Virus record (IMG/VR): IMGVR_UViG_3300038451_000684
From: a virus
Taxonomy: Duplodnaviria; Heunggongvirae; Uroviricota; Caudoviricetes
Direction: 5' to 3' (one strand)
Length of the DNA stretch: 64,000 nt
The notes below the pieces were generated by a model. The model saw only the letters and a program-made list of their open reading frames with translations. It made no database searches and had not been told where the DNA came from. Position 1 is the stretch's first letter; every line of letters begins with the position of its first letter. This document shows positions 4,864-28,066 of this stretch, piece after piece. Made by a program: the position numbers and the translations under genes.

Positions 4864-4940
4864 GAAATGGCTCAAAACCATTTCGGTTTTGAGCCATTGC
4901 TTGTTCTCCGCAGGGAGGGGCATGTCGCTCGTCGATTCTG
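4864..4940 (-). promoter_or_regulatory. conserved late-gene 5'UTR hairpin element, copy 1 of 5
   Basis: Consensus, read on + strand, is AGAAATGGCyCAAgrCCATtTCyGGtyTTGAGCCATTGCTtrTTCyC..GGgGGGGCATGyyGCTCG. On the minus RNA a 13-15-bp hairpin is followed by a U tract (UUUUUU here), 20 nt upstream of the ATG of 1126..4839. Confidence 0.6.
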
Positions 4941-4962
4941 CTGTATTATACCGTTTTAGCTT

Positions 4963-6309
4963 TTACTTTGTTCCCTGAGACGATGCTTGGTTCCTCATCT
5001 GATTCGCGTTGTTGTAGCGTTCCTGGCTCCGATTCTGCGCTTGTCCGCGCTGCACCAGAATGTCGGAGAAAGATCCCGTGCTCATGAGCCGCGAATTCTC
5101 CGCCGCGCACGCTTGAATGGCTCTCGATTCCAGTTCCAATGCTTGCTGGAATTCCGCGCCTCCCTGCTTGAAGCAAGCCAGGCACTGCGCCAGATCGATC
5201 ACAATATCCCAGTTGCTGCGTGAAACCTGTACATAGTCGGCATCGAGCGTGGGCACGGGCGCATTGGCCAGCACCGTCACGCCAATGCCTGAGCCAACCG
5301 GGGCGGCCAGAAAATCAATGCCGCCAATTACGACGCAAGGTCCAAAGCTGGCAGGGGAAGAATCCCACTCCGGCATATAGCGGTCCATCGCTACAATGGA
5401 GGGCATATCACAGGCCATGCCGTTTACTTTTCCCAACATCGCCCAAGGCGTCTTCAGCAACAGGTTCAGACCGTCCTGATAACGCCGCAGACAATATGCC
5501 GCGCGCTGCCGGTCCGTGGCTTCCGTTTCACGGCCTAGCAAGTCGGCCAGCGCACCCCACTCCAGCACCCAGGCAAAATCGTTGGGGATGCCCAGCAAAG
5601 TCGCTGTGGGCGGATTGAAGGCCGCGCCGGATTGTAGAACAACCGCTTCATACGTTCCCGGCTGGTTCGGCGGCACATCCACGTCCCAGGCGAGCGGCGG
5701 CTCGCTGCTGAGCATAAAGGTTTGCGGCGGTTGCGCATTCTGCTGGTAGAGTGGAGCTTCGTAAAACTCCAGCGCCACCGTGTCATCGCGATAAAGCGTA
5801 TTGGGCGATCCGGTCGCGGGAATGTACCGGACGCGCTCCACGTCGATGACCGTGTCTGGCAGCAGAGTGCGCCGGGTGTTAGGTGTCAGCGCAATTCCAG
5901 TGAGCAGCGACTGGTTGCAGTTGGAGGCTTGCAGCATCTCGTCCCTGCGCCGCTGCAAGGCTTGCGTTAGATCGCTCATACTGAACTGCGTTGTTCCGGT
6001 CCAGGTTCCGCCTGTAGGCGGCTCCAGCAGCATGTACTCCATATTGGTGTAGGAATCGATGTCGGTCAGCGTGCGCAGCCGCGGCGAGCCGGTCAAAAGA
6101 CCGAGGGAATTCCAGAGCGACGATGAGTTGAAAGTGAAATCCTGCTTCCAGGTAAAGGTCAGCGCATTGAACATGCGCAGGGCTTTTTGGATATAGAGGC
6201 CGCACTCCGCGTCCGTCCAGAAGGTGGTTGACAAGGAACTGTCAATCGCCAACCGGCCGGCGAGCTGCTGCCGTGCTGTCGCATACGTGAGCCAACTGTA
6301 AGACGCCAT
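4963..6309 (-). CDS. hypothetical virion structural protein (448 aa)
   Basis: Long ORF in the structural operon with a good coding frame. No recognisable motif. Confidence 0.55.
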   Translation of the reverse strand: MASYSWLTYATARQQLAGRLAIDSSLSTTFWTDAECGLYIQKALRMFNALTFTWKQDFTFNSSSLWNSLGLLTGSPRLRTLTDIDSYTNMEYMLLEPPTGGTWTGTTQFSMSDLTQALQRRRDEMLQASNCNQSLLTGIALTPNTRRTLLPDTVIDVERVRYIPATGSPNTLYRDDTVALEFYEAPLYQQNAQPPQTFMLSSEPPLAWDVDVPPNQPGTYEAVVLQSGAAFNPPTATLLGIPNDFAWVLEWGALADLLGRETEATDRQRAAYCLRRYQDGLNLLLKTPWAMLGKVNGMACDMPSIVAMDRYMPEWDSSPASFGPCVVIGGIDFLAAPVGSGIGVTVLANAPVPTLDADYVQVSRSNWDIVIDLAQCLACFKQGGAEFQQALELESRAIQACAAENSRLMSTGSFSDILVQRGQAQNRSQERYNNANQMRNQASSQGTK

Positions 6310-6317
6310 CTGTTTTC

Positions 6318-6412
6318 CTTCGGAAAACAGGGGTTAGGGATCAGGGGGTAGGGATTAGTTCATAGATAGGTTGTATCTATAAAAAACTAACCCCTAATCC
6401 CTAGCCCCTGAC
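6318..6412. repeat. ~95-bp imperfect palindrome built from telomere-like TTAGGG(G)/CCCTAA units
   Basis: Left arm is acaggggttagggatcagggggtagggattagtt and right arm is aactaacccctaatccctagcccctgacccctgt, around an inner atagata/tatctat palindrome. The core is shared with the 53876..53950 element. Confidence 0.7.
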
Positions 6413-6419
6413 CCCTGTC

Positions 6420-6704
6420 TCACCCCCTCTTGCTGGTTGCGATCTTGCTCTTACCCTTTTTGCCTTTGCCCTTTTTGCCCTTGCCCTTCGGGCCGCAACT
6501 TGCAAGGTGCATGGAGGCAATCCGTAGCGCCGAGGCGTGATCTGGAGCGACAAAGGTTTTGCTCATGTAGCCCTTGTCAGGACCGCCGTCGCTGCTGGTA
6601 TGAATAACGAAGCCATTCTCCGCGCTATCGATCGAGGTTGTAATCCGGCCTGAACCGCCGCTTGTGCTCGGGGCTTCCTGCTGCGCTTTTTTCTTCGCCA
6701 TCAC
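6420..6704 (-). CDS. small lysine-rich basic protein (histone-H1-like tail KGKGKKGKGKKGK)
   Basis: 94-aa ORF, first of four tandem K/R-rich small ORFs. Confidence 0.5.
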   Translation of the reverse strand: MMAKKKAQQEAPSTSGGSGRITTSIDSAENGFVIHTSSDGGPDKGYMSKTFVAPDHASALRIASMHLASCGPKGKGKKGKGKKGKSKIATSKRG

Positions 6705-6986
6705 TTACCTCTTTCCCGTGGCCCGCTTGCGGCCACCCTTTTTCTTCGCTGTGGCCTTTTTCTGTCCGCTGGCGGCGGTGCCGGCCAACTTGCCCTTAGC
6801 CTTGCGCTTTGTTTTGTCTTTTTCTGCTGCCTCGCGAAAACTCTCGTTGGCCTTCCTCACCATCTCGTCATGCCATGAAGTGTCAACTTTGCGATGAGGC
6901 GTGGGGATGGCCATCAGGGTGTTCTCGAACGTATCTGCAACCCGATGCGCCGAATCGACAAGTCCACTTACTGCATCCCTGGACAT
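6705..6986 (-). CDS. small lysine-rich basic protein (C-term KKKGGRKRATGKR)
   Basis: 93-aa ORF. Its C-terminal KKKGGRKRAxxKR is shared with the next paralogue. Confidence 0.5.
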   Translation of the reverse strand: MSRDAVSGLVDSAHRVADTFENTLMAIPTPHRKVDTSWHDEMVRKANESFREAAEKDKTKRKAKGKLAGTAASGQKKATAKKKGGRKRATGKR

Positions 6987-6989
6987 TTC

Positions 6990-7265
6990 TCACCTCTTCG
7001 ATACTGCCCGCTTGCGACCGCCTTTTTTCTTTGCGGCGGCTTTCTTCAAATTTCCATGCTTGGCCTTGCCTTGAAAACGCAATGCCAGCCGACCACGCGC
7101 GGCGATCTTCTTGCTTGGCGATTTTGCTTCCGCCTTCGCCTCTGCCGTCACGGAGCGACGATGTTTCTTGGCCGCGTTTTTCACTGCGCCGGGGTGCGAC
7201 ACGGCTTTCTGAATCCACTTTCCGCCCGTGGATTCCCGGTTCGATGAATCAATTTCGTTTGCCAT
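6990..7265 (-). CDS. small lysine-rich basic protein (C-term KKKGGRKRAVSKR)
   Basis: 91-aa ORF, paralogue of 6705..6986. Confidence 0.5.
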   Translation of the reverse strand: MANEIDSSNRESTGGKWIQKAVSHPGAVKNAAKKHRRSVTAEAKAEAKSPSKKIAARGRLALRFQGKAKHGNLKKAAAKKKGGRKRAVSKR

Positions 7266-7287
7266 AAATCTCTCCTGCTTACTGCGC

Positions 7288-7482
7288 TCATTGCTTCGTA
7301 ATCAGCTTTTTCCGGTGCGTGCTCTTTCCTTTTTTGCCCTTGCGCGGCCCGATCCGGCCTTCTTTTCGCAGATAACTCAAAAGGATTGCCTTTGCCTGCT
7401 TCTTGTTGCGCACAATTTTTCCGCCCCGGCCGGAATGGAGTTTGTGCTTACGGAAGTCTTCCATTACTTCGGATGCCGGCAT
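7288..7482 (-). CDS. small basic protein (64 aa)
   Basis: ATG at 7480-7482 with GGAGGAGG RBS. K/R-rich. Lies directly downstream of element copy 2. Confidence 0.5.
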   Translation of the reverse strand: MPASEVMEDFRKHKLHSGRGGKIVRNKKQAKAILLSYLRKEGRIGPRKGKKGKSTHRKKLITKQ

Positions 7483-7508
7483 CGCCCCTCCTCCATGGCT
7501 CAGAAACA

Positions 7509-7582
7509 GAAATGGCTCAAGCCATTTCCGGCTTGAGCCATTGCTTGTTCGCCGCAGGGCGGAGCATGCTGCTCGACGAGAT
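7509..7582 (-). promoter_or_regulatory. conserved late-gene 5'UTR hairpin element, copy 2
   Basis: AAATGGCTCAAGCC/GGCTTGAGCCATT hairpin plus conserved flank, 27 nt upstream of the ATG of 7288..7482. Confidence 0.6.
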
Positions 7583-7710
7583 ATTTCAGCTTACAGTTTA
7601 CCGCAAAACTCACCGCACGCATGTTGCGCGGCTGGTCAGGATTCCCACCTGACGGGGGGCATGGTCGATAGGATCACCCCGCGTTGCTCAGGGCACAGCC
7701 GCGCAAGCTC

Positions 7711-8256
7711 TTACAGCTTCGCCTTCGTCAGGCCAAGGCCGGTCGCAAGATCGTTCCACTGCGACTTATACGCGCCCACCTTCGACTGCATGAAGTGCGG
7801 ATCTTTCAGCGGCACTACACCGCGATGTTGGTTAGCCTGAACCAGTGCCTTCACCTTGACCTTGGTCGCGCTGGTCTTGACGAACGTGGTCAAGATTACC
7901 TCGATGGCCGAAACCAGCAAGTCGATCAGCGTCGAATATGCTGACGTGACCGGAATGACCGCCAGAACCGCTTCCAGGGTGTCCAGAGCGCTCACGACGA
8001 TTGTTACAGCGGTAGACCCATTCCAGGACGATTCGGTGTTCTCCAGCGCGGTAATGGCGTCGCTGAGCGTGATGTACCAGCTATCGGTCGAGGAACCCAA
8101 CGCCAGGATTTTTTCGGCCGATTCCAGTACCGTATTCAAATAGCTCTTCAAGGTCGATGTGCTGATCGTGCAGCCTTCCATCGAGAGCAGCGCCGGAGCC
8201 GCCACCAGCGCGGCGCCGCCAAGTCCCGAAGTCTTCAAAAAGTTTCTGCGATTCAT
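7711..8256 (-). CDS. secreted protein with twin-arginine (Tat) signal peptide
   Basis: N-terminus MNRRNFLKTSGLGGAALVAAPALL matches the RRxFLK Tat motif. 181 aa. Confidence 0.5.
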   Translation of the reverse strand: MNRRNFLKTSGLGGAALVAAPALLSMEGCTISTSTLKSYLNTVLESAEKILALGSSTDSWYITLSDAITALENTESSWNGSTAVTIVVSALDTLEAVLAVIPVTSAYSTLIDLLVSAIEVILTTFVKTSATKVKVKALVQANQHRGVVPLKDPHFMQSKVGAYKSQWNDLATGLGLTKAKL

Positions 8257-8459
8257 AGTGTCCTTTCGTGTTGCGGTTCCGGAGCGCCCTGCGGAAATGG
8301 TGGTGGACCGGGTTGAGGTTGAGAATCCGGTGGGGGAAAAGGCGGAGGAAACGGTTGCGGACCAGGGCCGGGAGCGGGTGGAAGTGGTGGCTCCGGACCA
8401 GCGTTTACAATATCCCCCGCATCTTCAAGCACATGTCCAATCTTGCTGAAAATACTCAT
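8253..8459 (-). CDS. proline-rich small protein (68 aa)
   Basis: ORF with a PPxP-rich tail. Weak call. Confidence 0.3.
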   Translation of the reverse strand: MSIFSKIGHVLEDAGDIVNAGPEPPLPPAPGPGPQPFPPPFPPPDSQPQPGPPPFPQGAPEPQHERTL

Positions 8460-8473
8460 GTGTTAGCTCCTTA

Positions 8474-8938
8474 TCAGTTGACTTGCGTAAAGACCGCCAG
8501 GGAAATCAAAAGACTATCCTCTGGTGTAAACCAGTTGACGACTCTGGGATCAAGCGGGTGAAGCAGCCCGAAAGCCGCCAAGCCCTCCACCCACAATTTG
8601 CTGCAAATCCACTTGTTTGGATCATCCCAATTCCGGTCCAGCGCAATAGCGGCGATATTCAGAAAGTCATACTGCTTGCCGATTTGCGCATGGAGCCACT
8701 TCATGCCGTTATTCAACTGCTCTTCGGAGACTTCCGCCTGAAAGCGCCACTCCGCCTGAAATTTGGCGTAGTTGATCGGCCGTATCTGCACTCCGCCCAT
8801 GGCTCGCGCTCCGATGGTCTGCGTCCAGTCGTCAACGCAGAATTCGACATGCGTGGCCTGTCCCCGGCTGACAAATTTGATGGCTTCGCCGATCGGGTCG
8901 TTATCCGCCACCACGCGCCATTGAACGAAATAGCTCAT
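8474..8938 (-). CDS. hypothetical protein; possible permuted papain-fold (NlpC/P60-like) hydrolase
   Basis: 154 aa. Conserved His (ATHVEFC) precedes Cys (WICSKLW), the order seen in permuted NlpC/P60 enzymes. Assignment is tentative. Confidence 0.4.
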   Translation of the reverse strand: MSYFVQWRVVADNDPIGEAIKFVSRGQATHVEFCVDDWTQTIGARAMGGVQIRPINYAKFQAEWRFQAEVSEEQLNNGMKWLHAQIGKQYDFLNIAAIALDRNWDDPNKWICSKLWVEGLAAFGLLHPLDPRVVNWFTPEDSLLISLAVFTQVN

Positions 8939-9690
8939 TGGATTGCCGCCAAGTCCGTCTGCAATTGTTCGCTGTCAAATCCATCCGGTGATTTAAAGTC
9001 TGGAACGATGACGGCGTATAGCTCGTCCGGGTACAGCGCCAACGCTTTCCAGGTGATGCGGTAGGTTTGCTCCCACGTCAAGAATTCCAGGTAGTCAGGC
9101 GTGTATCTGGCCTTGCCATAGATCATGTGCCCGCCCCAGCTCCACGGAGCCCACGAGCCGGTCGTCAGCCCCTGCGGCGACACATCCCACGTCGTTTCTC
9201 CCTGCCAGGCCGTCGGCAACGCTACGCCAATATACAGGCCGCCAAAGTACCGCGCACTTAGCTTGATCTCGTCCGGCTTGCCAAGATTCAGCGCCAGATA
9301 GGCAACCGGCGCGTGACCAAAAGCCCCCGACTTCTGCAGGTATTTGAGCGTGGTCAGGCCGTCGCTGCCGTTGTCCGTGCTGGAGTCCCCCGGCTTGTAT
9401 CCGTCGCACTCTTCATACATCTGCAATACCTGAGCATCTGTGTAATCGAAGGGCTTTCCTGCTGCGGTCGAGAGGCTGTAGACCATGCCGGCATAGGCCG
9501 CCTTGGTGCAGTCCCCCAAAGTGTCATTGTCATAGTAGCTGGGCGTGGTGTCAGGAATGCCGAGCAGACCATAGGCTTCCGGCGCCGGGGCTAGAGCTTG
9601 CGTATAGGTTGCCAGCTTCAGATTGCGCTTGTCGTGCCGGGCGTGCTGTTTTAGAACGGGAACCGACTTGTGAAATTGCAGCAGATTCAT
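8935..9690 (-). CDS. hypothetical protein (251 aa)
   Basis: Good frame. Overlaps neighbours by 4 nt, consistent with an operon. Confidence 0.5.
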   Translation of the reverse strand: MNLLQFHKSVPVLKQHARHDKRNLKLATYTQALAPAPEAYGLLGIPDTTPSYYDNDTLGDCTKAAYAGMVYSLSTAAGKPFDYTDAQVLQMYEECDGYKPGDSSTDNGSDGLTTLKYLQKSGAFGHAPVAYLALNLGKPDEIKLSARYFGGLYIGVALPTAWQGETTWDVSPQGLTTGSWAPWSWGGHMIYGKARYTPDYLEFLTWEQTYRITWKALALYPDELYAVIVPDFKSPDGFDSEQLQTDLAAIQ

Positions 9691-9911
9691 TCCTTTCCTG
9701 CTTTCTCCGGTACTTCTTCGATTCTGTACTGGTGGCGTTTGCCGTCGCCCATCACGGCCATCATGTCTGAAAACGCATTTTCCAGAGTGCTCCAGCTACT
9801 GCTCTCGGCAAAGATTTCATACTTGTCATCGATCTCCACCGCCACCTGGAACTGTTTCTCCGAAATGGTCCAAACAAACCGTTTTGCCGGTCGCCCGTTC
9901 AGATTCATCAT
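9687..9911 (-). CDS. hypothetical protein (74 aa)
   Basis: Small ORF overlapping the upstream gene stop by 4 nt. Confidence 0.35.
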   Translation of the reverse strand: MMNLNGRPAKRFVWTISEKQFQVAVEIDDKYEIFAESSSWSTLENAFSDMMAVMGDGKRHQYRIEEVPEKAGKE

Positions 9912-10025
9912 TTCTGTTTCTTTCTGCTATCGCTCCAAACCATTGCCACCAAGGTAAAAAAGGTTCCAACGGTTAGGACAACATAGCCACCAAGTACAAC
10001 TTTATCGAGCATGTTCATACAACCC

Positions 10026-10292
10026 TCATTTGTTCAAGCCAAGCGTGGCTGTGCCGTCCACGGGCAGCTTCTCTTGGATGGTTGAGTGCGAATACTTGGC
10101 GACAACGCCCGCCAGTAGAATGATGTTTGACGCCGCGACTGGATGCGCTTGAAGGATTGACACAATGAAGCTTTGCGCCTGCTGATCGGTGGTAATCAAC
10201 ACCGCCAGCGCTACCGCGCCCGCGAGTACCGTGTGCGAAGTAATGTTTTTGCTTTTGAACCACGTAATGATGCTGTTCATAAATCCCCTCAT
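10026..10292 (-). CDS. two-TM membrane protein, holin-like
   Basis: 88 aa with two hydrophobic helices (VLAGAVALAVLI and IILLAGVVA). Confidence 0.4.
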   Translation of the reverse strand: MRGFMNSIITWFKSKNITSHTVLAGAVALAVLITTDQQAQSFIVSILQAHPVAASNIILLAGVVAKYSHSTIQEKLPVDGTATLGLNK

Positions 10293-10623
10293 TGGGCCGC
10301 GGTTTGCGGCATTCTGGTAGCTGCATCATAAGGTACTGGTGGCTGCGACACAACGGTCTTTTGCTGAGTTTGCGCACTTGGATGATTGTGGTAATAATCC
10401 TCAATGACGAGCTTCGCGGCAGGAACAATTTGATCGAGCGCCCAACTGGTAAAAGCCAGGAAGATTGCGAACAATCCCCCGGAGATCCAGATTGCGGCTT
10501 TCTCAAATCCCATGTGCCGTTCCATCCGGCGCTGAAAAGCGCGAAAGTTGCTGACTCCCTCCTCTACCGGCTTCAACCGCGTCTTCAGTTTTCCCAGTTC
10601 CACCGCCACGTCTTCGTTCGTCA
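10289..10623 (-). CDS. single-TM membrane protein (start at internal ATG 10621-10623)
   Basis: Reads MTNEDVAVELGKL... with TM helix AAIWISGGLFAIFLAFTSWAL. The upstream part of the track ORF overlaps the 10644..14342 gene. Confidence 0.4.
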
Positions 10624-10643
10624 TGCTTGGCCCTTTCTTGCTT

Positions 10644-14342: not shown

Positions 14343-14344
14343 CC

Positions 14345-15968: not shown

Positions 15969-15986
15969 CTCTGCACCTTCCTGTTC

Positions 15987-16044
15987 CCTAACCCCTAATC
16001 CCTGTCACCTAACCCCTAACCCCTAATCCCTGTCTCTATCCCCA
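15987..16044. repeat. C-rich (+) / G-rich (mRNA strand) telomere-like repeat island (CCCTAA/CCCCTAA)n
   Basis: Sequence ctaacccctaatccctgtcacctaacccctaacccctaatccctgtc lies between 16036..17046 and 15591..15968. Confidence 0.6.
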
Positions 16045-17046
16045 TCCGCCAACATTGAGCTGTCCTTCCACCGTGCTGTACGGCTCGCCAAACGCCGACG
16101 GGAACCGTTCCATCCGGGTGAAGTACAGATCAACAAGATTTCTGTCCATGTTGCGAATCATTTGCAGCCGGTTGGCATATTCGGCGCGCGACGCCTGCAT
16201 CAGGAATTGCCAGTTGGCGCCCGAGCCGCGCTCCATCTCGTCGCCCTTTTGCGACTCTTTCCAGAGATAGAGCATCTCGTAGGCGCGCAGCTTTACCAGC
16301 TCTTCCGTCAGCGGAAAGGGCAGCGTATCGGCTGGATTGGTCAGCGCCGGCCAGTTTGCTTGGCAACAAAAGGTGTAGGGCAGTTGCGTAATCGGATGCG
16401 GCCACAGCTCATACAGCATCTGTCCATAAGTTGCTGAACCGGTTCGCGTGTCCTGGCCGTAGGGAACAACGTAAAGTGGCTCGTCGAAATCGGTCCGTTC
16501 CGCGTCTTCGTTGGCCAAGTCGATTTGCGTCTTGCTCCACCAGTCGAGCTGGTTGTTGTTGGTCGTGTCGCGTATGTTGTACCAGCGTTTGAAGCCTGCC
16601 GGAGCTGGATAGTAGGCTTGGTAGGCCATGTAGGTCCCGTTCGTCTGTGCGGGTTCCATCCATGGCCGGTCCAGCGTCAGCACCACGGCGGAGGTGTTTG
16701 TCGCATCGAGGGCAACGACGTTATAGAGCGAATAATACGGAACGCGGATCTGGTACTGGGTAATTAGCGGCGGGTTGGTGATCGTGGCAATCCATGCGGC
16801 CGAGGCCGTGGCGTCGCCGGTGATGGTGTTGGTAAAGGGCGTAACGGTAATTGTTCCGGGGCTGAGAAACTGCGTCGTAGGGCCGCCCAGCAGCGAGGGC
16901 GTCAGCCAGCCTCCGGTTTGAAGTTGGAAGCTCCAGACGTTTTCGTTCTGGATGGCCTGCAGGGCTTCATTGAGCTTGGTTTTGACCAAGCCAAGATTGC
17001 AACCAGGGATGCCGAGCAACTCTTGAATCATGTTTTGAAACGCCAT
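16036..17046 (-). CDS. hypothetical structural protein (336 aa)
   Basis: Long ORF with a good frame. Confidence 0.55.
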   Translation of the reverse strand: MAFQNMIQELLGIPGCNLGLVKTKLNEALQAIQNENVWSFQLQTGGWLTPSLLGGPTTQFLSPGTITVTPFTNTITGDATASAAWIATITNPPLITQYQIRVPYYSLYNVVALDATNTSAVVLTLDRPWMEPAQTNGTYMAYQAYYPAPAGFKRWYNIRDTTNNNQLDWWSKTQIDLANEDAERTDFDEPLYVVPYGQDTRTGSATYGQMLYELWPHPITQLPYTFCCQANWPALTNPADTLPFPLTEELVKLRAYEMLYLWKESQKGDEMERGSGANWQFLMQASRAEYANRLQMIRNMDRNLVDLYFTRMERFPSAFGEPYSTVEGQLNVGGWG

Positions 17047-18715: not shown

Positions 18716-19948
18716 TTAGACCGAGAATCCAAAAGCATAGTTGTTGTGGCGCGGCTGCACGTTGTACAGGTTCGTGCCCAGCCGCATAAACAGAGCATCG
18801 ATGCTCACGTTATTCGGCATTGGCGCACGGCGCAGACCAAAGTTCCAGCCCTTCTTGTTGGTCGGGCGAATCTTGAAGCTTTCCGGCTCCAGGAAGTAAA
18901 TCACTTCGCTGGGCTGAATCGTGGTGACCGAAGGCAAACCGGAACCGGTCGGCGATACAAGGACGTTCGCGCCGTTCTTGGTGAACTGCGGAGTCGTGAA
19001 CGACACCGTTGTGGTGCTCGATCCAACGCCGTCCTGAAGGTTCGTATTGCCGGCTGCGCCGTTCGCCGGAGCCAGTTCGATGTAGTTCTGAGCCTGGGCT
19101 GAAGGCGCCAGCGGATCGGCATAAATGTCGACGCCGTTGAAGTTCAGGCCATCCCACTTGATGTCGTGCTTGGTGTTCGAAATGTCGCGGCGCTGCGCAT
19201 CGAGCGCGACGGCGATGGCTCTGAACCCGAAAACGTTGGTGATGCCCAGCGTCGGATTGCCGCCTGCGACCTTGATTGTCGACCACAACTGCATCAGGGC
19301 GGCAAAGTCGATCTGGCCGGGTGCTCCAGCCGATGTTCCCAGATATTGCGGCGTCGTGTTCAGCGCCGTGCCGATGTTGCCATTGCGCGCTTGTCCGCCG
19401 TAATTCGTGTAGATGTTGCCGTAGACGGAGGGATCGATGCCGTTGTTCAAGGCTTCGTCCATGCCGTTGATGGTCTTGATGCGATTGTCGAGAACAGTTG
19501 TCGAGGAAGGCTGGCCATGCCGGAAGGAATCCATCTCCTGCATGGTGTTCATGGTCATTACCATGGCTTCCATGTAGAGCTGGTACTCGTCGACAATCTT
19601 TGACGGACCGGAGTTAATCACACCGCCCGTGCCGGAGCCGTCATCCATTTCCCAGTCGTCCAGCGGATACCAGGTGGCATACGCCTTGGGCAGGAACTTG
19701 ATGCCGGTGTTGATCTGTTGGCGGGTCACGGTGACCGTCTGGCCGGGATTCACTGCGGCGCCTTGCGTGCGCCCGTAGAGAATGCCTTCCATCATGCCGG
19801 CGCCGCCGAGGAATTCATCCCACACACCAGCCCTGCGGAGCTTGGCCTGAAACGGCGTATCCACAAACAGGTTGTTGAAGACTACATTTTTGCGGACGCT
19901 TTCCAGGTTCGACGCATCGATTTCGTTATAGAGAGGATCGGTTGGCAC
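18716..19948 (-). CDS. putative major capsid protein (410 aa, GTG start at 19946-19948)
   Basis: Size and position (after scaffold-like gene, before decoration proteins) fit a major capsid protein. Preceded by element copy 3. No diagnostic motif verified. Confidence 0.5.
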   Translation of the reverse strand: MPTDPLYNEIDASNLESVRKNVVFNNLFVDTPFQAKLRRAGVWDEFLGGAGMMEGILYGRTQGAAVNPGQTVTVTRQQINTGIKFLPKAYATWYPLDDWEMDDGSGTGGVINSGPSKIVDEYQLYMEAMVMTMNTMQEMDSFRHGQPSSTTVLDNRIKTINGMDEALNNGIDPSVYGNIYTNYGGQARNGNIGTALNTTPQYLGTSAGAPGQIDFAALMQLWSTIKVAGGNPTLGITNVFGFRAIAVALDAQRRDISNTKHDIKWDGLNFNGVDIYADPLAPSAQAQNYIELAPANGAAGNTNLQDGVGSSTTTVSFTTPQFTKNGANVLVSPTGSGLPSVTTIQPSEVIYFLEPESFKIRPTNKKGWNFGLRRAPMPNNVSIDALFMRLGTNLYNVQPRHNNYAFGFSV

Positions 19949-19977
19949 TGGACACCTTCTTGAGAATGAAATAGAAA

Positions 19978-20050
19978 TGGCTCAAGCCATCTCTGGTCTT
20001 GAGCCATTGCTGATTCCCTGAAGGGGGGCATGCGTCTCGATTGATTTTTC
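19978..20050 (-). promoter_or_regulatory. conserved late-gene 5'UTR hairpin element, copy 3
   Basis: Same consensus as the other copies. Lies upstream of the capsid gene RBS AAGGTG. Confidence 0.6.
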
Positions 20051-20065
20051 AAAACTGCTGCGGAA

Positions 20066-21448: not shown

Positions 21449-21480
21449 CGGCGGCTAAGCTGCCGTTGGGGAACGGCTAA

Positions 21481-21591
21481 CTAAGCCTTGATGCTGCTGC
21501 GTTTCTTTCCGCCCTTGCGACGGCCCTTGCGGCCACCCTTCTTCAGGTGACTTGCCTTCATTGCGCTGACCTTTTTTCCACGCTTCGCCAT
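21481..21591 (-). CDS. small lysine-rich basic protein (36 aa, MAKRGKKVSAMKASHLKKGGRKGRRKGGKKRSSIKA)
   Basis: Internal ATG 21589-21591 with AAGGAG RBS. The longer track ORF would overlap element copy 4. Confidence 0.45.
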   Translation of the reverse strand: MAKRGKKVSAMKASHLKKGGRKGRRKGGKKRSSIKA

Positions 21592-21616
21592 GTGATTTCT
21601 CCTTGGGTGCAAAATA

Positions 21617-21695
21617 GAAATGGCCCAAGAGCCATTTCGGTTCTTGAGCCATTGCTGATTCCCCAAGGAGGGGGGGCATGTCGCTCGGTTGATTC
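21617..21695 (-). promoter_or_regulatory. conserved late-gene 5'UTR hairpin element, copy 4
   Basis: Hairpin AATGGCCCAAGAGCC/GGTTCTTGAGCCATT varies compensatorily relative to copies 1-3. Confidence 0.6.
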
Positions 21696-21738
21696 TTAAT
21701 CATCTGTAGGCCGAATCTTTTTTCGTGTCAAGGCCTAA

Positions 21739-21978: not shown

Positions 21979-21988
21979 GCTTTTCTCC

Positions 21989-24082: not shown

Positions 24083-24189
24083 ACATCGCCCGTTTCCTCC
24101 TCGGTGAGTTCCTGAGCCATGAGCGCATAGTAGGCATATTTTGTCTACACGTCTACGCTAATTTCAACATTGCGCATAACTTACGCATC

Positions 24190-24579
24190 TCAGCGTCCTT
24201 TTTCGTAGGCCTCCGCGTGCAGATAGCTTTCCGTATGCATCTGCGTTCTGTCAGCGCGCTTGTCATAGAGTTCCAGGTGCCGACGCAGGAATTCGCGGTT
24301 TACGTTGTTTCGTGCATTGGTCATCAGGTGGTAAATGTGATCGCGCTGCTGCCGCCGGATTCTTCCCTCGACCTCTTCCCGTTCCGCATCTTCCATCTGC
24401 TGCTTGTGGGCTTCCTGCTGCCGCATCTTTTCGGACCACAACTCGGCTTCGTGCGCCGAGTTACAGACAATCTTTTCGTGAAAATCCGGTGCGGGATACT
24501 CTTCCGGCAAACCCATCTTGATCTGGCCATTCAGTGTGTCCAGCCAAAAAACAATCTTTGTTGTCAGTTGCGCGTTCAT
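24190..24579 (-). CDS. hypothetical protein (129 aa)
   Basis: Good frame with charged residues. Confidence 0.45.
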   Translation of the reverse strand: MNAQLTTKIVFWLDTLNGQIKMGLPEEYPAPDFHEKIVCNSAHEAELWSEKMRQQEAHKQQMEDAEREEVEGRIRRQQRDHIYHLMTNARNNVNREFLRRHLELYDKRADRTQMHTESYLHAEAYEKGR

Positions 24580-25199
24580 TTGCTCTCCAGCATTTCCCTG
24601 TTCTCGGAAATAAGCCTGTCCGTATCAGCCCAAACGTCATTGAACTCTCGGAAGTTTTGGCGCGTAACGTTTTTGAGCCGGGCCAACTCTGACGGAGTAA
24701 GCTGGAGTGCAGCACCCGTGAGCGGATCTTTTGCATAACCACCATTTTCCAGAGCCCGTAAAGCTAACGGAGCACTCATCGCCATGACAAACGTCTTGCT
24801 CCATTTCAATTTTTGCGTGGCCTTCTTTGTTTGCGCGTGCAGCTCGGTTGCCGTCATCATCACCGGATGAAGCCGCTTGCCGGCAGCGATCTCATTGAAC
24901 TGTTTCTCAACAAAGTCACGCTGCTCCGTGTAATACTTTCGTGCCTTTCTGTACTTTGGATGCTGAGTAACAAAATGCAGCCAATTGAATTTGCTCGATT
25001 CCCCGAGATTGTGAAGATCGCGCCTTCCCCAATAGAAGATCGGTCCCCAACCACGGAGCAGAATTACCAGACCAAACTCGTCGCTTCTGCCATAGAGCAT
25101 GGCTCCCCAATCAAATAAAATCGTGAACCAGCGCGTTGCCCACGTGACACTGCGCGAGCATTGCTCTGGTTTTCTTTCGTCGCTAAAGCTGATTTTCAT
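24576..25199 (-). CDS. hypothetical protein, paralogue of 25222..25620 (207 aa)
   Basis: Shared motif GKRLHPVMMTATELH / GERLHPVMMTARERH. Confidence 0.5.
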   Translation of the reverse strand: MKISFSDERKPEQCSRSVTWATRWFTILFDWGAMLYGRSDEFGLVILLRGWGPIFYWGRRDLHNLGESSKFNWLHFVTQHPKYRKARKYYTEQRDFVEKQFNEIAAGKRLHPVMMTATELHAQTKKATQKLKWSKTFVMAMSAPLALRALENGGYAKDPLTGAALQLTPSELARLKNVTRQNFREFNDVWADTDRLISENREMLESK

Positions 25200-25221
25200 T
25201 TGTTTTATCTCCGTTTACTTC

Positions 25222-25620
25222 TTACCGGATGATCTGGCGAAGTTCTGCTTCAGTGAATTCAGACGAATATTCGATGGCGCAACCATTCGCATGTGCAAGA
25301 TGACTGCCGAGAATGGCCTCAAATCCCGCCATGACGCCATGCGAATCGCAGAAACCTTTGCTCCAATCAAGTCCTTTGATCACGCGAGCGGATTCCATGT
25401 GCCGTTCTCTGGCAGTCATCATGACCGGATGCAGACGCTCTCCTTGACGAATTGCTTCCATTTGTTCTTCAAACCAATTTTGATCGCGAGATTGAGAAAC
25501 AGTTTCATCCCTTGATTCTGTTTGTGTCGCCTCTTTGCCAAACAACACCGTGAATTGCAGCCACGGAGTTCGTAACGTCAAACCCCGCTTTTTTTCTTTC
25601 TGCAAGCCAAAACATTTCAT
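25222..25620 (-). CDS. hypothetical protein, paralogue of 24576..25199 (132 aa)
   Basis: Shared RLHPVMMTA motif. Confidence 0.5.
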   Translation of the reverse strand: MKCFGLQKEKKRGLTLRTPWLQFTVLFGKEATQTESRDETVSQSRDQNWFEEQMEAIRQGERLHPVMMTARERHMESARVIKGLDWSKGFCDSHGVMAGFEAILGSHLAHANGCAIEYSSEFTEAELRQIIR

Positions 25621-25632
25621 TGTCTTCCCCCC

Positions 25633-27792
25633 TTACCAATCCAGTCGACCAACCGAGACCATATTCACCGAGCACACAGACTTATTCAGCGGTGGTGTTC
25701 GATCCGCCGGCAACGTGTAACGCTTTTGCGCTTGAGAACGATCAGCCAAGATATCGAAGTCGTGCGCGGTAAAGTAAGATTGCGCCGCCGCACGCACGCG
25801 GTCATCATGCTGGCCGCTGCGGTGCTCCAGCTTGGAAACACGGCCTGCGGCTTCATGCCGTTCCAGCGTCTTCAGCTCTTCGATCAGCCATTTGGATGCC
25901 GGCCGATACCAGCCGCCGTTCACAGCTTCCGTAAAGCGCGTCATCAGCATCGGCACGCTCCACACATTGGAGTACCAACCCTGCTTTTTGGTGGAGTTGT
26001 CCTTGATCTTCTTACTGTCGTAGCGCCGTGGAATGTGATGCCAATGGAAGCCCATCAGCTTGAGCTGGTGCTGGCATGTATCGCCCGGCCTCCCGATCTG
26101 CTCTACGCAGAACTTCACGCCGCGCGCATCGCGCGCATTTTCTCCATACCAGGCGGCCATACAAGCTGCGAAGCCCACAATCTGCGCGGAATTGATGCGG
26201 TTCGATGTCAGCTCGGCCACTTGGTAGTCAAACTCATCGCCAAACCTGTTTCGTGTCATCGACACGACGGTCCGGTCTTCATCCTCGCCGCCCAAGCCAT
26301 CGGCCGTATCGATTCCGCAACTATAGCTGGTGCCGGGCGTGGGCGCTTCATAGACCAGCAGTTTGTCGAACGAATCAGGTTCCTTGTCTTCGTCAATTGG
26401 CAAAAGAGGAACCAGAACCCAGTCGTATTGCTGGCCCCGATCAGACTCCCAACTTACGCGAATACGTGGTTTCTCGTCGTCGACGAATGCTTCGTTGGGT
26501 TCAAAGCCATCGTCAATCGAGTCACCCGTAATGGCATACACCTGTACTTCTTTCTTTCTTTCCCGCGTGTCTCCATGCAGTTCATAAACGTTGTTTTCAA
26601 TTTCCTGCATGGTTTCCGCGTCGAAGACGCTGTCATGCAAGCCGGTCAACGCTTCAAAGTCATCGGCGGCCATCTGCGCCAGCCAGATTTTCTGTGTATG
26701 GTTCTTGCAGGCTTGCAGATAGTTGAACTCCCAGAACCACTGCTGCTCGACAGGCATTGTCCAACGCGTGCCAACCACCTTGGACAGATATGGAGTGTTG
26801 CGGATGTAGAGTTCGCAGCGCAAAACATGCTTGCGCGTAATCTCCTGCCGTTTGCTCATAAAGTCTTCAGGAACGGGGAATTTCCGTATCCAATCGGCTT
26901 CTGGATAAAGATCGGTCGCCATCGGCCAGGGAATGAAGATAGGGCACAACCGGGAAAGGCCCTTCGGCCAATCTTCCTTGGCGCTGCGCCAAGTGTTTGC
27001 CAGCCAGCCAGTATTGCCGCCACCAGTCCCTTCAAAAACCAGAAACAGGTTTTTTGAAGAGTGCGTAGCGCGCAACAGACCTTCTTCAATCACCTTTTCC
27101 GGCTTGGGAATATCGGCAATTTCCGACACATGGATACAGGTCGGAGTCCACCCCTGAGCAATGCCGGTGGCCTGCATGCCAGACTGGATGGAAAGCACGG
27201 AACCGTTCTCAAAAGCCCCCTTCGGCATTCTGCGCGGCACCAGCCACCACGGGCAGCGGTTGTAGGCAATGTCAAGAATGCGCCCGATCAGTTCGGACTT
27301 ATCCGACTGCACGGACGCCATCACAGCCTGCGTATGGGGAATGAACAAGAGGCGGTGAAGGAACTTCAACGCGGTCTTGGTCGTGATGCCAACCTGCCGG
27401 GCCTTGATCACCAGGATTTCAATTGCCACTTGCAGTTCGTCGAAGCCGGCAATCACAGAATCGAAGATTTCCTGCGATCTACGATTTTGGAACTTGAAGA
27501 TTTCGCCTTTTTCGTTGCAGACATAGGCGTAGCGGCTCTCGAAGTAGCCGGCATCGAGGCCGCACATCGCCTGTTCATTCTCGATCCAGCGCCAAATTTC
27601 CTGACGGCGTTTTTGGGTAATCGGCCGCATCAGGGTGACATAGGAACTGCGAGAGTTTGATTCAATTTTGGTTAGCGAGTCGACGTAATGCTTGAATTCT
27701 TCTATTTGATCGAACGTATGAGGAGCGGGCATCCACCCCTCACGCGCGGCAAATTCGTCCAGGTTCCGAAGAATGATCTTCTCGGAATACAT
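25633..27792 (-). CDS. terL: terminase large subunit (719 aa)
   Basis: Size, position upstream of portal, and an ATPase-like segment VIKARQVGITTKTA. The antisense 443-aa + ORF is rejected. Confidence 0.6.
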   Translation of the reverse strand: MYSEKIILRNLDEFAAREGWMPAPHTFDQIEEFKHYVDSLTKIESNSRSSYVTLMRPITQKRRQEIWRWIENEQAMCGLDAGYFESRYAYVCNEKGEIFKFQNRRSQEIFDSVIAGFDELQVAIEILVIKARQVGITTKTALKFLHRLLFIPHTQAVMASVQSDKSELIGRILDIAYNRCPWWLVPRRMPKGAFENGSVLSIQSGMQATGIAQGWTPTCIHVSEIADIPKPEKVIEEGLLRATHSSKNLFLVFEGTGGGNTGWLANTWRSAKEDWPKGLSRLCPIFIPWPMATDLYPEADWIRKFPVPEDFMSKRQEITRKHVLRCELYIRNTPYLSKVVGTRWTMPVEQQWFWEFNYLQACKNHTQKIWLAQMAADDFEALTGLHDSVFDAETMQEIENNVYELHGDTRERKKEVQVYAITGDSIDDGFEPNEAFVDDEKPRIRVSWESDRGQQYDWVLVPLLPIDEDKEPDSFDKLLVYEAPTPGTSYSCGIDTADGLGGEDEDRTVVSMTRNRFGDEFDYQVAELTSNRINSAQIVGFAACMAAWYGENARDARGVKFCVEQIGRPGDTCQHQLKLMGFHWHHIPRRYDSKKIKDNSTKKQGWYSNVWSVPMLMTRFTEAVNGGWYRPASKWLIEELKTLERHEAAGRVSKLEHRSGQHDDRVRAAAQSYFTAHDFDILADRSQAQKRYTLPADRTPPLNKSVCSVNMVSVGRLDW

Positions 27793-27841
27793 TGATCTCC
27801 AACATTCCGCAGTCCCAAGACGAATTTATATCGCTGAAGGA

Positions 27842-27959
27842 TTATCCCTTGACGGCGAGTGTCTTGCTGGCCCGCTTGCCGAGATGCTTCACACGCGCGG
27901 TCTGCTTTTTCAGGTGGTTGAGCTTTGGTGTGTAGATCTGCTTGCCCTTACGCTTTGTC
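27842..27959 (-). CDS. small basic protein (39 aa, MTKRKGKQIYTPKLNHLKKQTARVKHLGKRASKTLAVKG)
   Basis: Internal ATG 27957-27959 with GGAGG RBS. Element copy 5 lies immediately upstream. Confidence 0.4.
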
Positions 27960-27991
27960 ATGATGTTCCTCCTTGGAAGTGGCTTAGAACA

Positions 27992-28066
27992 GAAATGGCC
28001 CAAGGCCATTTCCGGTCTTGAGCCATTGCTTGTTCCCTGGAGGGGGGGCATGTGTCTCGGTGATTG
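27992..28066 (-). promoter_or_regulatory. conserved late-gene 5'UTR hairpin element, copy 5
   Basis: Same consensus. Hairpin AATGGCCCAAGGCC/GGTCTTGAGCCATT. Confidence 0.6.

What the first reader, a model, noticed from the sequence alone, without database searches (positions are those of the whole stretch)
4864..28066. Five copies of a conserved, covarying ~75-nt hairpin element upstream of late genes
Copies at 4864-4940, 7509-7582, 19978-20050, 21617-21695 and 27992-28066 share the consensus AGAAATGGCyCAAgrCCATtTCyGGtyTTGAGCCATTGCTtrTTCyC..GGgGGGGCATGyyGCTCG (+ strand). On the coding (minus) RNA this gives a conserved CAUGCCCCCCUCC (anti-SD-like) segment, then a 13-15-bp hairpin, then a U-rich tract. 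Each copy lies 20-40 nt upstream of the RBS of the tail-fibre gene, the putative capsid gene and three small basic-protein genes. Hairpin arms covary between copies (CAAAACC/GGTTTTG, CAAGCC/GGCTTG, CCCAAGAGCC/GGTTCTTGAGCC), which argues for a structural role. It may act as a partial terminator, a processing or stabilising site, or an antiterminator target that sets late-gene stoichiometry.
Basis: seen in the sequence. Interest (0 to 1): 0.75.

Follow-up and report, generated by a model that had tools for sequence, protein, structure and literature searches.

The report
Two-state leader RNA before phage late genes
The five repeats are copies of a roughly 95-nucleotide leader RNA, often carrying its own bacterial-type promoter, that can fold in two mutually exclusive ways and probably acts as an on/off switch for the structural genes of an uncultivated ~130-kb peat-soil phage.

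Summary
The window has exactly five copies (85-100 bits; next best 16 bits), all in the sense orientation of the late genes. The same element turns up in more than 100 contigs of related uncultivated peat phages.

- About 65% of copies carry a sigma-70-type promoter (TTGACA/G, about 17 nt, TA...T) at a fixed distance upstream. The element is therefore the 5' leader of the transcript.
- The RNA has four covarying helices, not one. P0+P1+P3 (Fold A) and P1+P2 (Fold B) exclude each other.

Fold B is a GC-rich hairpin followed by a conserved U tract, which looks like a terminator. It also leaves the C-rich 5' part free to pair with the Shine-Dalgarno sequence and start codon. Fold A is predicted to free the ribosome site.

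Best reading: a default-off leader that an unknown factor flips on. No Rfam family matches, and no cultured phage has it. Function is inferred, not shown. I rate it a new variant of a known kind, with interest about 0.6.

The parts
21607..21701 (-). Copy 4 of the leader RNA element (covariance-model hit), upstream of a 36-aa basic protein gene
   Evidence: R1 99.6 bits, R2 90.1 bits; sequence
21703..21731 (-). Sigma-70-type promoter of copy 4: TTGACA (21731-21726), 17-nt spacer, TACAGA (21708-21703). The -10 ends 16 nt before the invariant GAG
   Evidence: Read. -35 at a fixed distance in 49 of 76 contexts and 59 of 91
21676..21686 (-). S1 of copy 4 (GAGCGACAUGC), the 5' strand of helix P0
   Evidence: P0 pairs: 99% paired, 3 of 8 compensatory, 0/500; divergent set 90.8%, 21 double-change cells vs 5.2 expected; predicted in 71 of 76 5' fragments
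21661..21673 (-). P1 of copy 4: CCCC-UCCUU-GGGG hairpin. Its loop plus 3' arm (CUCCUUGGG) is complementary to the SD region CCCAAGGAG
   Evidence: All 4 P1 pairs show compensatory changes; anti-SD duplexes
21646..21655 (-). S2 of copy 4 (GCAAUGGCUC), the strand shared by P0 (with S1) and P2 (with S4)
21619..21653 (-).
21617..21638 (-). P3 of copy 4 (GAAAUGGCU-CUUG-GGCCAUUUC), the alternative short hairpin formed when P0 holds S2
   Evidence: terminator scan; Fold A; covariation 92.5% paired, 6 of 8 pairs compensatory, 0/500
21611..21618 (-). U-rich tract of copy 4 (UCUAUUUU)
   Evidence: UUU at +5 to +7 after P2 in at least 93% of 76 sequences; mean 5.4 U in 9 nt
21481..21604 (-). SD AAGGAG (21604-21599) and the 36-aa basic protein gene (ATG 21591 to TAG 21481), MAKRGKKVSAMKASHLKKGGRKGRRKGGKKRSSIKA
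27982..28073 (-). Copy 5 of the element, upstream of a 39-aa basic protein gene (27842-27961) that precedes the large terminase gene
   Evidence: R1 94.2 bits
28072..28100 (-). Sigma-70-type promoter of copy 5: TTGACA (28100-28095), 17 nt, TACATC (28077-28072)
   Evidence: Read
19964..20053 (-). Copy 3, promoterless, starting about 28 nt after the stop codon of the 338-aa gene and ending 15 nt before the GTG of the major capsid gene (18716-19948)
   Evidence: R1 96.6 bits; no -35; capsid call
7499..7589 (-). Copy 2, with no convincing promoter, upstream of the 63-aa DUF6496 gene (7291-7482)
   Evidence: R1 85.2 bits
4854..4950 (-). Copy 1 plus a TATAAT box (4950-4945) at the usual -10 position with a weak -35, upstream of the 1237-aa protein gene (1126-4839)
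   Evidence: R1 86.3 bits
7640..7690 (-). Partial sixth copy: only the 5' half (CGACCAUGCCCCCCGUCAGGUGGGAAUC), with no P2
   Evidence: not found by the covariance models

Best explanation
The element is a cis-acting 5' leader RNA. It is usually delivered with its own strong host-type (sigma-70) promoter, and it works as a two-state switch in front of the most heavily used late genes: capsid, small basic proteins and a large fibre-like protein.

The two states:
- Fold B (P1 + the long hairpin P2 + U tract). This fold is thermodynamically favoured. Inference: it is also the easier fold to reach during transcription, because the top of P2 can nucleate and then displace P0. It presents an intrinsic-terminator-like hairpin, and it leaves the C-rich 5' segment free to pair with the Shine-Dalgarno sequence and start codon. 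Both read-through and translation are therefore off by default.
- Fold A (P0 + P1 + P3). Here the 5' segment S1 captures the 5' arm of P2. This removes or weakens the terminator hairpin and frees the ribosome-binding site.

Inference: a trans-acting factor made earlier in infection stabilises P0/P1 and switches all cassettes on together. Most likely this is a phage RNA-binding protein. That would give late timing even though the promoters look constitutive.

Shown here: the sequence family, the promoter-like boxes, the four helices and their mutual exclusivity, the conserved U tract, and the matched anti-SD complementarity.

Inferred: termination, the direction of the switch, and the existence and identity of the factor.
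For: Occurrence:
- Five copies in the window and none elsewhere.
- The element was found in 44 IMG/VR stretches and 38 metagenome stretches by exact pattern, and in relatives with 64-98% capsid identity.
- All 118 hits lie on the capsid-gene strand.

Promoter:
- TTGAC at a fixed 40-48 nt before the invariant GAG in 49 of 76 contexts and 59 of 91.
- T/A at +23/+24 and T at +29 from the -35 start, with a 67% AT upstream region.

Helices:
- P1+P2: 97.2% paired, 12 of 17 pairs compensatory, 0/500 shuffles; 94.9% and 14 of 17 on the divergent set.
- P0: 99% paired, 3 of 8 pairs compensatory, 0/500; slid controls about 27%. On the divergent set, 21 double-change cells against 5.2 expected. Examples: CAUGC:GCaAUG becomes CGCGC:GCgGCG, CUUGC:GUaGAG, CAGAC:GUCaUG.
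- P0+P1 is the minimum-energy fold of the 5' fragment in 71 of 76 copies.
- P3: 92.5% paired, 6 of 8 pairs compensatory, 0/500.
- P0 and P2 use the same nucleotides (alignment A6, columns 84-91).

Outputs:
- U tract: UUU conserved in at least 93% of copies, 5.4-5.6 U in 9 nt.
- In the clade without S3, Fold A leaves no hairpin next to the U tract.
- Predicted SD accessibility is 0.49 in Fold A and 0.18 in Fold B over 63 leaders, p=4e-10.
- Own versus swapped leader:SD duplex: -15.6 vs -13.2 kcal/mol, p=2.7e-6. Compensated examples include CUCCUUGGG/CCCAAGGAG against CUCCUUUGG/CCAAAGGAG.
Against: - There are no transcript, termination or translation data of any kind.
- In the window's own clade, Fold A still ends in a 9-bp hairpin (P3) directly before the U tract. 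Fold A may therefore still terminate, and the transcriptional output of the switch is uncertain there.
- The capsid-gene copies have no promoter, yet they precede the gene that needs the highest expression. A default-off element is an odd fit there unless the activator is abundant.
- No candidate antiterminator or RNA-binding regulator was found among the window's proteins.
- The unpaired conserved nucleotides are few and mostly A-rich.
- Compensatory events in P0 come from about five lineages, and the shuffle controls ignore phylogeny.
- The host is unknown, so it is assumed rather than known that its RNA polymerase uses TTGACA promoters and hairpin-U terminators.
Confidence: 0.45

Rival explanations
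1. The element is a processing and stabilising site, like the RNase III sites of phage T7. The closed form (5' segment paired to the SD region, stacked under P2) is a long interrupted duplex. A double-strand-specific or AU-specific host RNase cuts it. This gives every late mRNA the same end whether it started at the cassette promoter or read through from upstream. It leaves a protective hairpin on the upstream RNA and releases the ribosome-binding site.
For: - Minimum-energy folds of full leaders form a long rod: 5' C-rich segment and CAUG paired with SD and AUG, enclosing P2.
- Promoterless copies exist inside operons, including before the capsid gene. That fits an RNA-level role that raises expression.
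- From memory (Dunn and Studier 1983, not checked here), several T7 promoters are followed directly by RNase III sites of similar size.
Against: - It gives no reason for the covarying alternative helices P0 and P3.
- It gives no reason for the conserved U tract.
- No cleavage data exist, and the host RNases are unknown.
Confidence: 0.2
2. The element is a fixed, unregulated promoter-plus-leaky-terminator cassette. It insulates transcription units and sets gene dosage, and it also acts as a portable recombination module, as proposed for the PeSL cassettes of T4-like phages.
For: - The cassette has the same general make-up as PeSLs: near-consensus sigma-70 promoter, stem-loop and SD within about 130 bp, in several copies per genome (PMC2839356, PMC4122927).
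- In relatives, cassettes sit in front of variable inserts such as an HNH-like gene and other extra ORFs.
- A half copy at 7640-7690 suggests recombination scars.
Against: - The hairpin lies 40-60 nt downstream of the -10 box, inside the cassette's own transcript. In PeSLs the stem-loop usually lies between or over the promoter boxes (PMC2839356).
- A plain terminator would not conserve its stem sequence across phages with 64-98% capsid identity.
- It would not need P0, P1, P3 or the matched anti-SD.
Confidence: 0.15
3. The cassette is mainly a small-RNA gene. Transcripts end at the U tract and give an abundant ~95-nt RNA (P0/P1 body plus P3 terminator hairpin) that acts in trans, for example as a decoy carrying a 16S-like CCUCC sequence. 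Downstream genes are fed by read-through.
For: - The layout is promoter, structured ~95-nt RNA, hairpin and U tract.
- Fold A looks like a typical bacterial sRNA.
Against: - Promoterless copies keep the full RNA.
- The element is always placed 10-30 nt from an SD and start codon, with complementarity matched to that particular SD. That points to action in cis.
Confidence: 0.08
4. The element is a riboswitch for a small molecule, for example a cyclic dinucleotide made by the phage's own GGDEF enzyme. The ligand would stabilise Fold A.
For: - The architecture is bistable, with a shared strand.
- The phage encodes a GGDEF protein with an intact GGEEF site.
- Homologues of that protein occur in at least four other element-bearing contigs.
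Against: - There is no match to any riboswitch family in Rfam.
- The putative sensor (P0/P1) is a simple irregular hairpin. Its P1 loop varies from 3 to about 50 nt, and it has few conserved unpaired bases.
- GGDEF presence was checked only in a few contigs.
Confidence: 0.05
5. The element is a DNA-level signal: an inverted-repeat operator for a DNA-binding protein, or a recombination site.
For: - The P2 arms are a near-perfect inverted repeat and are strongly conserved in sequence.
Against: - 40 of 76 sequences have U.G at one P2 position, which would be a C.A mismatch on the other strand.
- Arm-length changes and bulges are tolerated.
- Orientation is strictly the sense of the genes.
- P0, P1 and P3 covary as RNA helices.
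Confidence: 0.03

Closest known systems
Protein-dependent antiterminator/terminator leaders (BglG/SacY RAT type) and the L4-controlled S10 leader
   Same: A weaker upstream helix shares a strand with a stronger terminator hairpin that is followed by a U tract. The terminator is the default state. In the S10 leader one factor controls both transcription and translation. This comparison rests on general knowledge.
   Different: - There is no sequence or Rfam match.
- No PRD/CAT, ANTAR or similar regulator was found in the window.
- The leader is present five times in one phage genome in front of structural genes.
- It has an extra alternative hairpin (P3) and a built-in anti-SD.
Lambda PR'-tR' late control (constitutive promoter, short terminated RNA, Q antitermination)
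   Same: A strong host-type promoter is followed within about 100 nt by a terminator, upstream of late structural genes. This logic would make late expression depend on a factor acting after initiation.
   Different: - Lambda Q loads on DNA at the promoter. Here promoterless copies keep the RNA and the RNA helices covary, so recognition is likely at the RNA level.
- There are five cassettes instead of one.
PeSL cassettes of T4-like phages (PMC2839356, PMC4122927)
   Same: Repeated ~100-bp intergenic cassettes with a near-consensus sigma-70 promoter, an AT-rich upstream region, a stem-loop and the SD of the next gene. They are associated with variable small genes.
   Different: - The PeSL stem-loop sits between or over the promoter boxes and stops upstream transcripts. 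Here it lies within the cassette's own transcript.
- PeSLs lie in early hyperplastic regions. Here the cassettes are in the late structural module.
- No multi-helix covarying RNA is described for PeSLs.
T7 RNase III processing sites
   Same: Several copies of a conserved ~60-90-nt structured element lie between genes, some directly after promoters and just upstream of an SD. This comparison is from memory.
   Different: T7 sites have no U tract and no alternative folds. Cleavage was not tested here.
HK022 put RNAs
   Same: A two-hairpin RNA lies just downstream of phage promoters and affects termination in cis.
   Different: put has two adjacent stem-loops with no terminator of its own. Here the second hairpin is itself terminator-like, and the helices are separated by an 11-nt linker.

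Membership tests
Intrinsic (Rho-independent) terminator | GC-rich hairpin immediately followed by a U-rich tract on the transcript | tested here: met
   P2 has 13-15 bp with a GGCUC/GAGCC core. The tail is U-C/U-U-N-U-U-U with UUU in at least 93% of copies
Intrinsic (Rho-independent) terminator | RNA 3' ends produced at the U tract by RNA polymerase | not testable with these tools
   No transcript data. Metagenome contigs gave no informative ends
Transcription attenuator (antiterminator/terminator switch) | An alternative helix that shares a strand with the terminator hairpin and is itself conserved | tested here: met
   P0 uses alignment A6 columns 82-91, and P2 uses 84-97. P0 is 99% paired with compensatory changes and is predicted in 71 of 76 5' fragments
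Transcription attenuator (antiterminator/terminator switch) | The alternative fold removes the hairpin next to the U tract | tested here: inconclusive
   True in the clade without S3 (L201-L207). In the window's clade, the P3 hairpin remains in Fold A
Transcription attenuator (antiterminator/terminator switch) | A defined effector (protein, tRNA, ribosome or ligand) | not testable with these tools
   No regulator was recognised. The leader-peptide idea was rejected: the AUG in S1 is not conserved and the reading frame differs between copies (alignments)
PeSL (promoter-early stem-loop) cassettes | Repeated cassette with sigma-70 promoter, stem-loop and SD | tested here: met
PeSL (promoter-early stem-loop) cassettes | Stem-loop placed between or over the -35/-10 boxes, acting on upstream transcripts; located in early hyperplastic regions | tested here: not met
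   The hairpin starts about 45 nt downstream of the -10 box. The cassettes are in the late structural module; PeSL layout from PMC2839356
Any described RNA family (Rfam 15) | Covariance-model match at or near the gathering score | tested here: not met
   No hits at gathering over the window. Only chance-level hits with E of at least 0.7 around copies 3 and 4
Lambda-type nut site | boxA (CGCUCUUA-like) followed by a short boxB hairpin with a GNRA-like pentaloop | tested here: not met
   No boxA-like sequence in the consensus. P2 is 13-15 bp and has a U tract. Apical loops are often GAAA-like, but that is not specific
HK022 put | Two adjacent stem-loops with no terminator of their own, conferring read-through in cis | tested here: not met
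   There is an 11-nt linker between P1 and P2, and P2 carries a U tract. Read-through activity is not testable
Riboswitch | Highly conserved ligand-binding core of unpaired nucleotides and junctions | tested here: inconclusive
   Only a few conserved unpaired bases (C/CC, and AA-nn-A after P1). P1 loop length varies from 3 to about 50 nt
RNase III processing site (T7 type) | Cleavage by RNase III within an interrupted long duplex | not testable with these tools
   A long interrupted duplex is predicted. No cleavage data

The most novel reading that the evidence does not exclude
The leader is a new class of bistable phage riboregulator flipped by a signal the phage itself makes. One candidate is a cyclic dinucleotide from its own GGDEF cyclase. 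Another is the arginine/lysine-rich 33-40-aa mini-proteins encoded right behind two of the cassettes, which would give a self-amplifying late switch. In either case a single RNA module would time both read-through and translation of all structural genes from otherwise constitutive host-type promoters.
Probability: 0.12. Interest if true: 0.85.

Novelty: new variant of a known kind. Interest (0 to 1): 0.6.

Why it matters
Late-gene timing is understood for only a handful of model phages, through Q, N, Ogr, T4 late sigma and T7 RNA polymerase. This element belongs to a widespread group of uncultivated ~130-kb peat phages with almost no recognisable proteins. Its regulatory logic can still be read from sequence: strong host-type promoters followed by a multi-copy, four-helix, two-state leader that carries both a terminator and an anti-Shine-Dalgarno segment.

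If the model holds, it adds a new RNA family to the small set of phage cis-regulators. It also gives a direct handle, by affinity capture with the RNA, for finding an unknown late regulator. And it provides a compact portable expression switch. The family is large and diverse enough for a curated Rfam entry now.

Tried and rejected
1. The genome-contig scan used the pattern AATGGCTCAAN{6,20}TTGRGCCATT. Model R2 scores them at most 40 bits, against at least 85 bits for the window copies.
2. Rfam gave nothing, at gathering over the whole window or with permissive settings around copies 3 and 4.
3. The cultured-phage collection gave no DNA match to the window or to the cassette. The only protein relatives are the acidobacterial phages Tunturi_1 and Tunturi_2, with 27-29% identity. 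Tunturi_1 lacks the element; its best hit is 5 bits.
4. The leader-peptide idea (AUG in CAUGCC followed by Pro-Pro) was rejected. The AUG becomes CGC, CUU, CAG or CUC in divergent copies, in step with S2. The reading frame also differs between copies 3/4 and copy 5.
5. The DNA-level operator idea was rejected because of U.G wobbles and strict orientation.
6. The search for a regulator gave no antiterminator, sigma factor or RNA-binding domain. It covered PHROGs and Pfam on about 45 window proteins and the precomputed Pfam for the terminase neighbourhood.
7. The metagenome scan, run in the hope of transcript-like contig ends, returned only ordinary assemblies. It did show that the genome is about 130 kb.
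8. The simple sigma-70 scanner missed the cassette promoters because it requires T at position 6 of the -10 hexamer. They were found by reading the sequence and by anchoring on the -35.

Full report
**Observation**

A covariance model built from 35 distinct instances (R1) scores the window copies at 85-100 bits. With filters off, the next-best non-mirror hit in 64 kb is 11.6 bits. A broader model (R2) gives 85-94 bits against 16 bits. The weak plus-strand hits are the mirror image of the palindromic hairpin. All copies lie in intergenic gaps of a long minus-strand block. That block holds the large terminase (25633-27792) and the major capsid gene (18716-19948).

**Distribution**

The element is a family trait, not a quirk of this window.
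- An exact pattern taken from the hairpin arms finds it in 44 IMG/VR stretches and 38 JGI metagenome stretches. Several of the metagenome contigs are 129-134 kb, which suggests a genome of about 130 kb. By their record names the samples look like peat.
- Loci fetched through the capsid protein (64-98% identity) gave 118 model hits, every one on the capsid-gene strand.
- The broader model finds progressively more divergent copies down to about 65% capsid identity.
- No Rfam family matches. No record in the cultured-phage collection has the DNA.
- The only cultured relatives, the acidobacterial phages Tunturi_1 and Tunturi_2 (27-29% identity), lack the element.

Upstream of copies 4 and 5 the minus strand reads TTGACA-17 nt-TACAGA and TTGACA-17 nt-TACATC. 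The -10 box ends 13-16 nt before an invariant GAG that opens the element. Across relatives, TTGAC lies 40-48 nt before that GAG in 49 of 76 distinct contexts and in 59 of 91 when the divergent set is added. By my own estimate, chance would give about 2%.

Anchored on the -35, the consensus is cTTGACa..aaa.a..AttcgG..Ta.a..T. T and A at +23/+24 and T at +29 occur in 70-90% of cassettes, and the upstream 20 nt are 67% AT. The divergent clade has canonical TAnnnT boxes.

The element is therefore the first ~95 nt of a transcript. Copy 1 has a perfect TATAAT at the right distance but a weak -35. Copy 2 has no convincing promoter, and neither does any copy in front of the capsid gene. Those capsid copies begin about 28 nt after the stop codon of the preceding gene. 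The RNA part is thus conserved with or without a promoter.

The parts from 5' to 3' are:
- S1: GAGC-nn-CAUGC
- a C-rich run
- P1: a small hairpin (CCCC/GGGG, CUCC/GGAG, CGCC/GGCG, CCCAGU/ACUGGG and others)
- an A-rich linker ending in AGC
- S2: AAUGGCUCAAG
- S3: a second near-copy of S2 (GAAAUGGCU) inside the hairpin loop
- S4: CUUGRGCCAUUUC
- a U-rich tail

The helices and their support:
12 of 17 pairs show compensatory changes, and none of 500 shuffles does as well. On 26 divergent sequences the figures are 94.9% and 14 of 17.
- P0 (S1:S2) is 99% paired, with compensatory changes at three of eight pairs. Slid controls drop to about 27%.
- In the divergent set P0 has 21 double-change cells against 5.2 expected. 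Examples are CAUGC:GCaAUG replaced by CGCGC:GCgGCG, CGUGC:GUgACG, CUUGC:GUaGAG and CAGAC:GUCaUG.
- Most of the unpaired cells at one P0 pair (24:94 in A7) are resolved by a one-nucleotide register shift; this was read from the alignment.
- Folding only the 5' fragment gives P0 enclosing P1 in 71 of 76 cases. The other five are shifted by one nucleotide.
- P3 (S3:S4) is 92.5% paired with compensatory changes at six of eight pairs. GAAAU/AUUUC becomes GAAAC/GUUUC, GCAAU/AUUGC, GUAAU/AUUAC or GAAAA/UUUUC.

P0 and P2 use the same S2 nucleotides. P3 and the top of P2 also share nucleotides. So the RNA has two exclusive folds: Fold A (P0+P1+P3) and Fold B (P1+P2). Each fold has pairs found only in it that covary. 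For Fold A these are the S1 side of P0 and the S3 side of P3. For Fold B they are the apical P2 pairs, for example 93:134 with AU 49, GC 15, GU 8 and UA 2. The three-way constraint on S2 also explains why its sequence is so strongly conserved.

**Outputs of the two folds**

P2 has a GC-rich core (GGCUC.../...GAGCC). It is followed by U-C/U-U-N-U-U-U, with UUU kept in at least 93% of copies and 5.4-5.6 U in the first nine bases. This is the anatomy of an intrinsic terminator, and the simple scanner flags it as such.

In the clade whose P2 loop lacks S3 (L201-L207), Fold A leaves no hairpin next to the U tract. That is a textbook antiterminator/terminator pair. In the window's clade, Fold A still ends in the 9-bp P3 hairpin before the U tract. 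There the effect on termination is uncertain.

The second output is translation.
- The C-rich 5' part, often including a CCUCC or CUCCUU that mimics the 16S rRNA tail, is complementary to the Shine-Dalgarno region and often to the start codon of the gene that follows.
- The match is specific to each cassette. Own leader:SD duplexes average -15.6 kcal/mol against -13.2 for swapped partners, and 76% of cassettes beat their mean swap (Wilcoxon p=2.7e-6, not corrected for relatedness).
- Compensated pairs are visible by eye. They include CUCCUUGGG/CCCAAGGAG against CUCCUUUGG/CCAAAGGAG (L217), UCCUUGGAG/CUCCAAGGA (L021) and ACAGACUCC/GGAGUCUGU (L202).
- With the full leader, the predicted unpaired probability of the SD is 0.49 when Fold A is imposed and 0.18 when Fold B is imposed. 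For the start codon the values are 0.51 and 0.29. The free ensemble equals Fold B, which is on average 13 kcal/mol more stable (63 leaders, p=4e-10).

**Most likely mechanism**

The promoters look constitutive for a host sigma-70-type polymerase, while the leader defaults to Fold B. The upper part of P2 is not involved in P0. Inference: it can nucleate as soon as it is made and then displace S1.

Fold B both stops the polymerase at the U tract and hides the ribosome site. I therefore read the element as a default-off leader that is turned on when something stabilises P0/P1. The most economical candidate is a phage RNA-binding protein made earlier in infection. That would switch all cassettes on together and would also act on the promoterless copy in front of the capsid gene. 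This follows the logic of lambda PR'-tR' with Q, but carried out at the RNA level as in BglG/SacY-type leaders. It has the dual transcription/translation reach known from the L4-S10 leader. These comparisons rest on general knowledge.

The genes served are the capsid protein, two families of 33-40-aa extremely basic proteins found behind cassettes in all relatives, a DUF6496 protein and a 1237-aa protein with a weak PA14 match.

I put this model at 0.45. The structure is solid. The termination, the direction of the switch and the factor are inferred.

**Rivals**

- A T7-like processing site (0.2) fits the long closed duplex and the promoterless copies, but not the alternative helices or the U tract.
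- A fixed promoter/leaky-terminator cassette of the PeSL kind (0.15) shares the make-up of the cassette and its association with variable inserts (PMC2839356, PMC4122927). In PeSLs, however, the stem-loop lies within or before the promoter, and nothing there calls for P0, P1, P3 or a matched anti-SD.
- A trans-acting small RNA (0.08), a small-molecule riboswitch (0.05) and a DNA-level site (0.03) are less likely, for the reasons given in their entries.
- The riboswitch idea is kept alive only by the phage's own GGDEF cyclase. It has an intact GGEEF site and homologues in at least four other element-bearing contigs.

**Novelty and verdict**

Leaders with competing terminator and antiterminator helices, SD sequestration, and repeated promoter cassettes in phages are all known ideas. 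This particular RNA family is not in Rfam. It combines all three features, has a fourth helix that makes both folds end in a hairpin, occurs about five times per genome in front of structural genes, and belongs to an uncultivated ~130-kb phage lineage. I rate it a new variant of a known kind, with interest 0.6.

The host was not identified. My one scan of the genome collection was wasted on too loose a pattern.

Noticed in passing
47345-48397 and 53266-53892: Two CRISPR-like arrays (15 and 9 repeats of the 37-nt unit GTTGCATCAAACAGATGCACTGAAAGTTCCTTGCTAC, spacing 70-73 nt). No cas gene was recognised among the ORFs scanned nearby. Between them lie a peptide deformylase (48982-49542) and an IS1595 transposase (51559-52476). 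Degenerate lone repeats sit at 52182 and 60893. This looks like a phage-borne, cas-less array.
   Followed up: partly
6371-6437, 15980-16066, 52847-52899, 53903-53955, 59773-59803, 62946-63040: Intergenic tracts of the heptamer CCCTAAC/CCCCTAA, which reads as TTAGGGG-like G-runs on the opposite strand. The same kind of tract lies just upstream of some cassettes in relatives (L185, L186). Function unknown; it may be another regulatory or G-quadruplex-forming signal.
   Followed up: no
40720-40749, 42317-42346, 43379-43408, 44171-44200 (+ strand): Four copies of TAACGCA-N6-AACCGGAGCACAGCTCCA, containing a GGAGC-ACA-GCTCC hairpin. They lie in intergenic gaps of the plus-strand (early/middle) gene block and form a second, different repeated leader-like element.
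   Followed up: partly
34678-34737 and 36626-36685 (+ strand); also 36610, 38290, 39726: A paired ~60-nt repeat containing an AT-rich hairpin followed by GCTTGACAC and GAGCG..GCGCAAAGT, plus a 32-nt repeat CTTTTGATAGGCGCCCAAAATAATCTCACCAT in three copies. These are likely early promoter/operator regions at the divergence point of the two gene blocks.
   Followed up: no
44515-45207 (+): A phage-encoded GGDEF diguanylate cyclase with an intact GGEEF site and an N-terminal hydrophobic segment. Homologues (54-90% identity) occur in five related viral contigs, four of which are known to carry the element.
   Followed up: partly
21481-21591 and 27842-27961 (- strand): Two families of 33-42-aa, extremely basic proteins sharing an (S/A)H(L/V)KK motif and an A(I/V)K(A/G) C-terminus. 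They lie behind a cassette in every related phage examined and have no Pfam match. Gene callers replace the first one with an 82-aa ORF that overlaps the RNA element.
   Followed up: partly
7640-7690 (- strand): A half copy of the element (S1, C-run, P1 and linker, but no P2) lies about 75 nt upstream of copy 2. It may be a recombination scar.
   Followed up: partly
6705-6986 and 6990-7265 (- strand): Two adjacent small genes (93 and 91 aa) share an 81%-identical 42-nt segment and are therefore paralogues. They lie downstream of the DUF6496 gene served by copy 2 (family D11).
   Followed up: no
L294 5640-5810 (Tunturiibacter phage Tunturi_1): An unannotated 28-aa lysine-rich ORF (MAKESKKEMKKEELKKKKSGKK...) is preceded by a hairpin-U terminator and a promoter-like sequence. 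It sits at the same genome position (between portal and capsid) as the small basic gene of the window phage, but without the RNA element.
   Followed up: no
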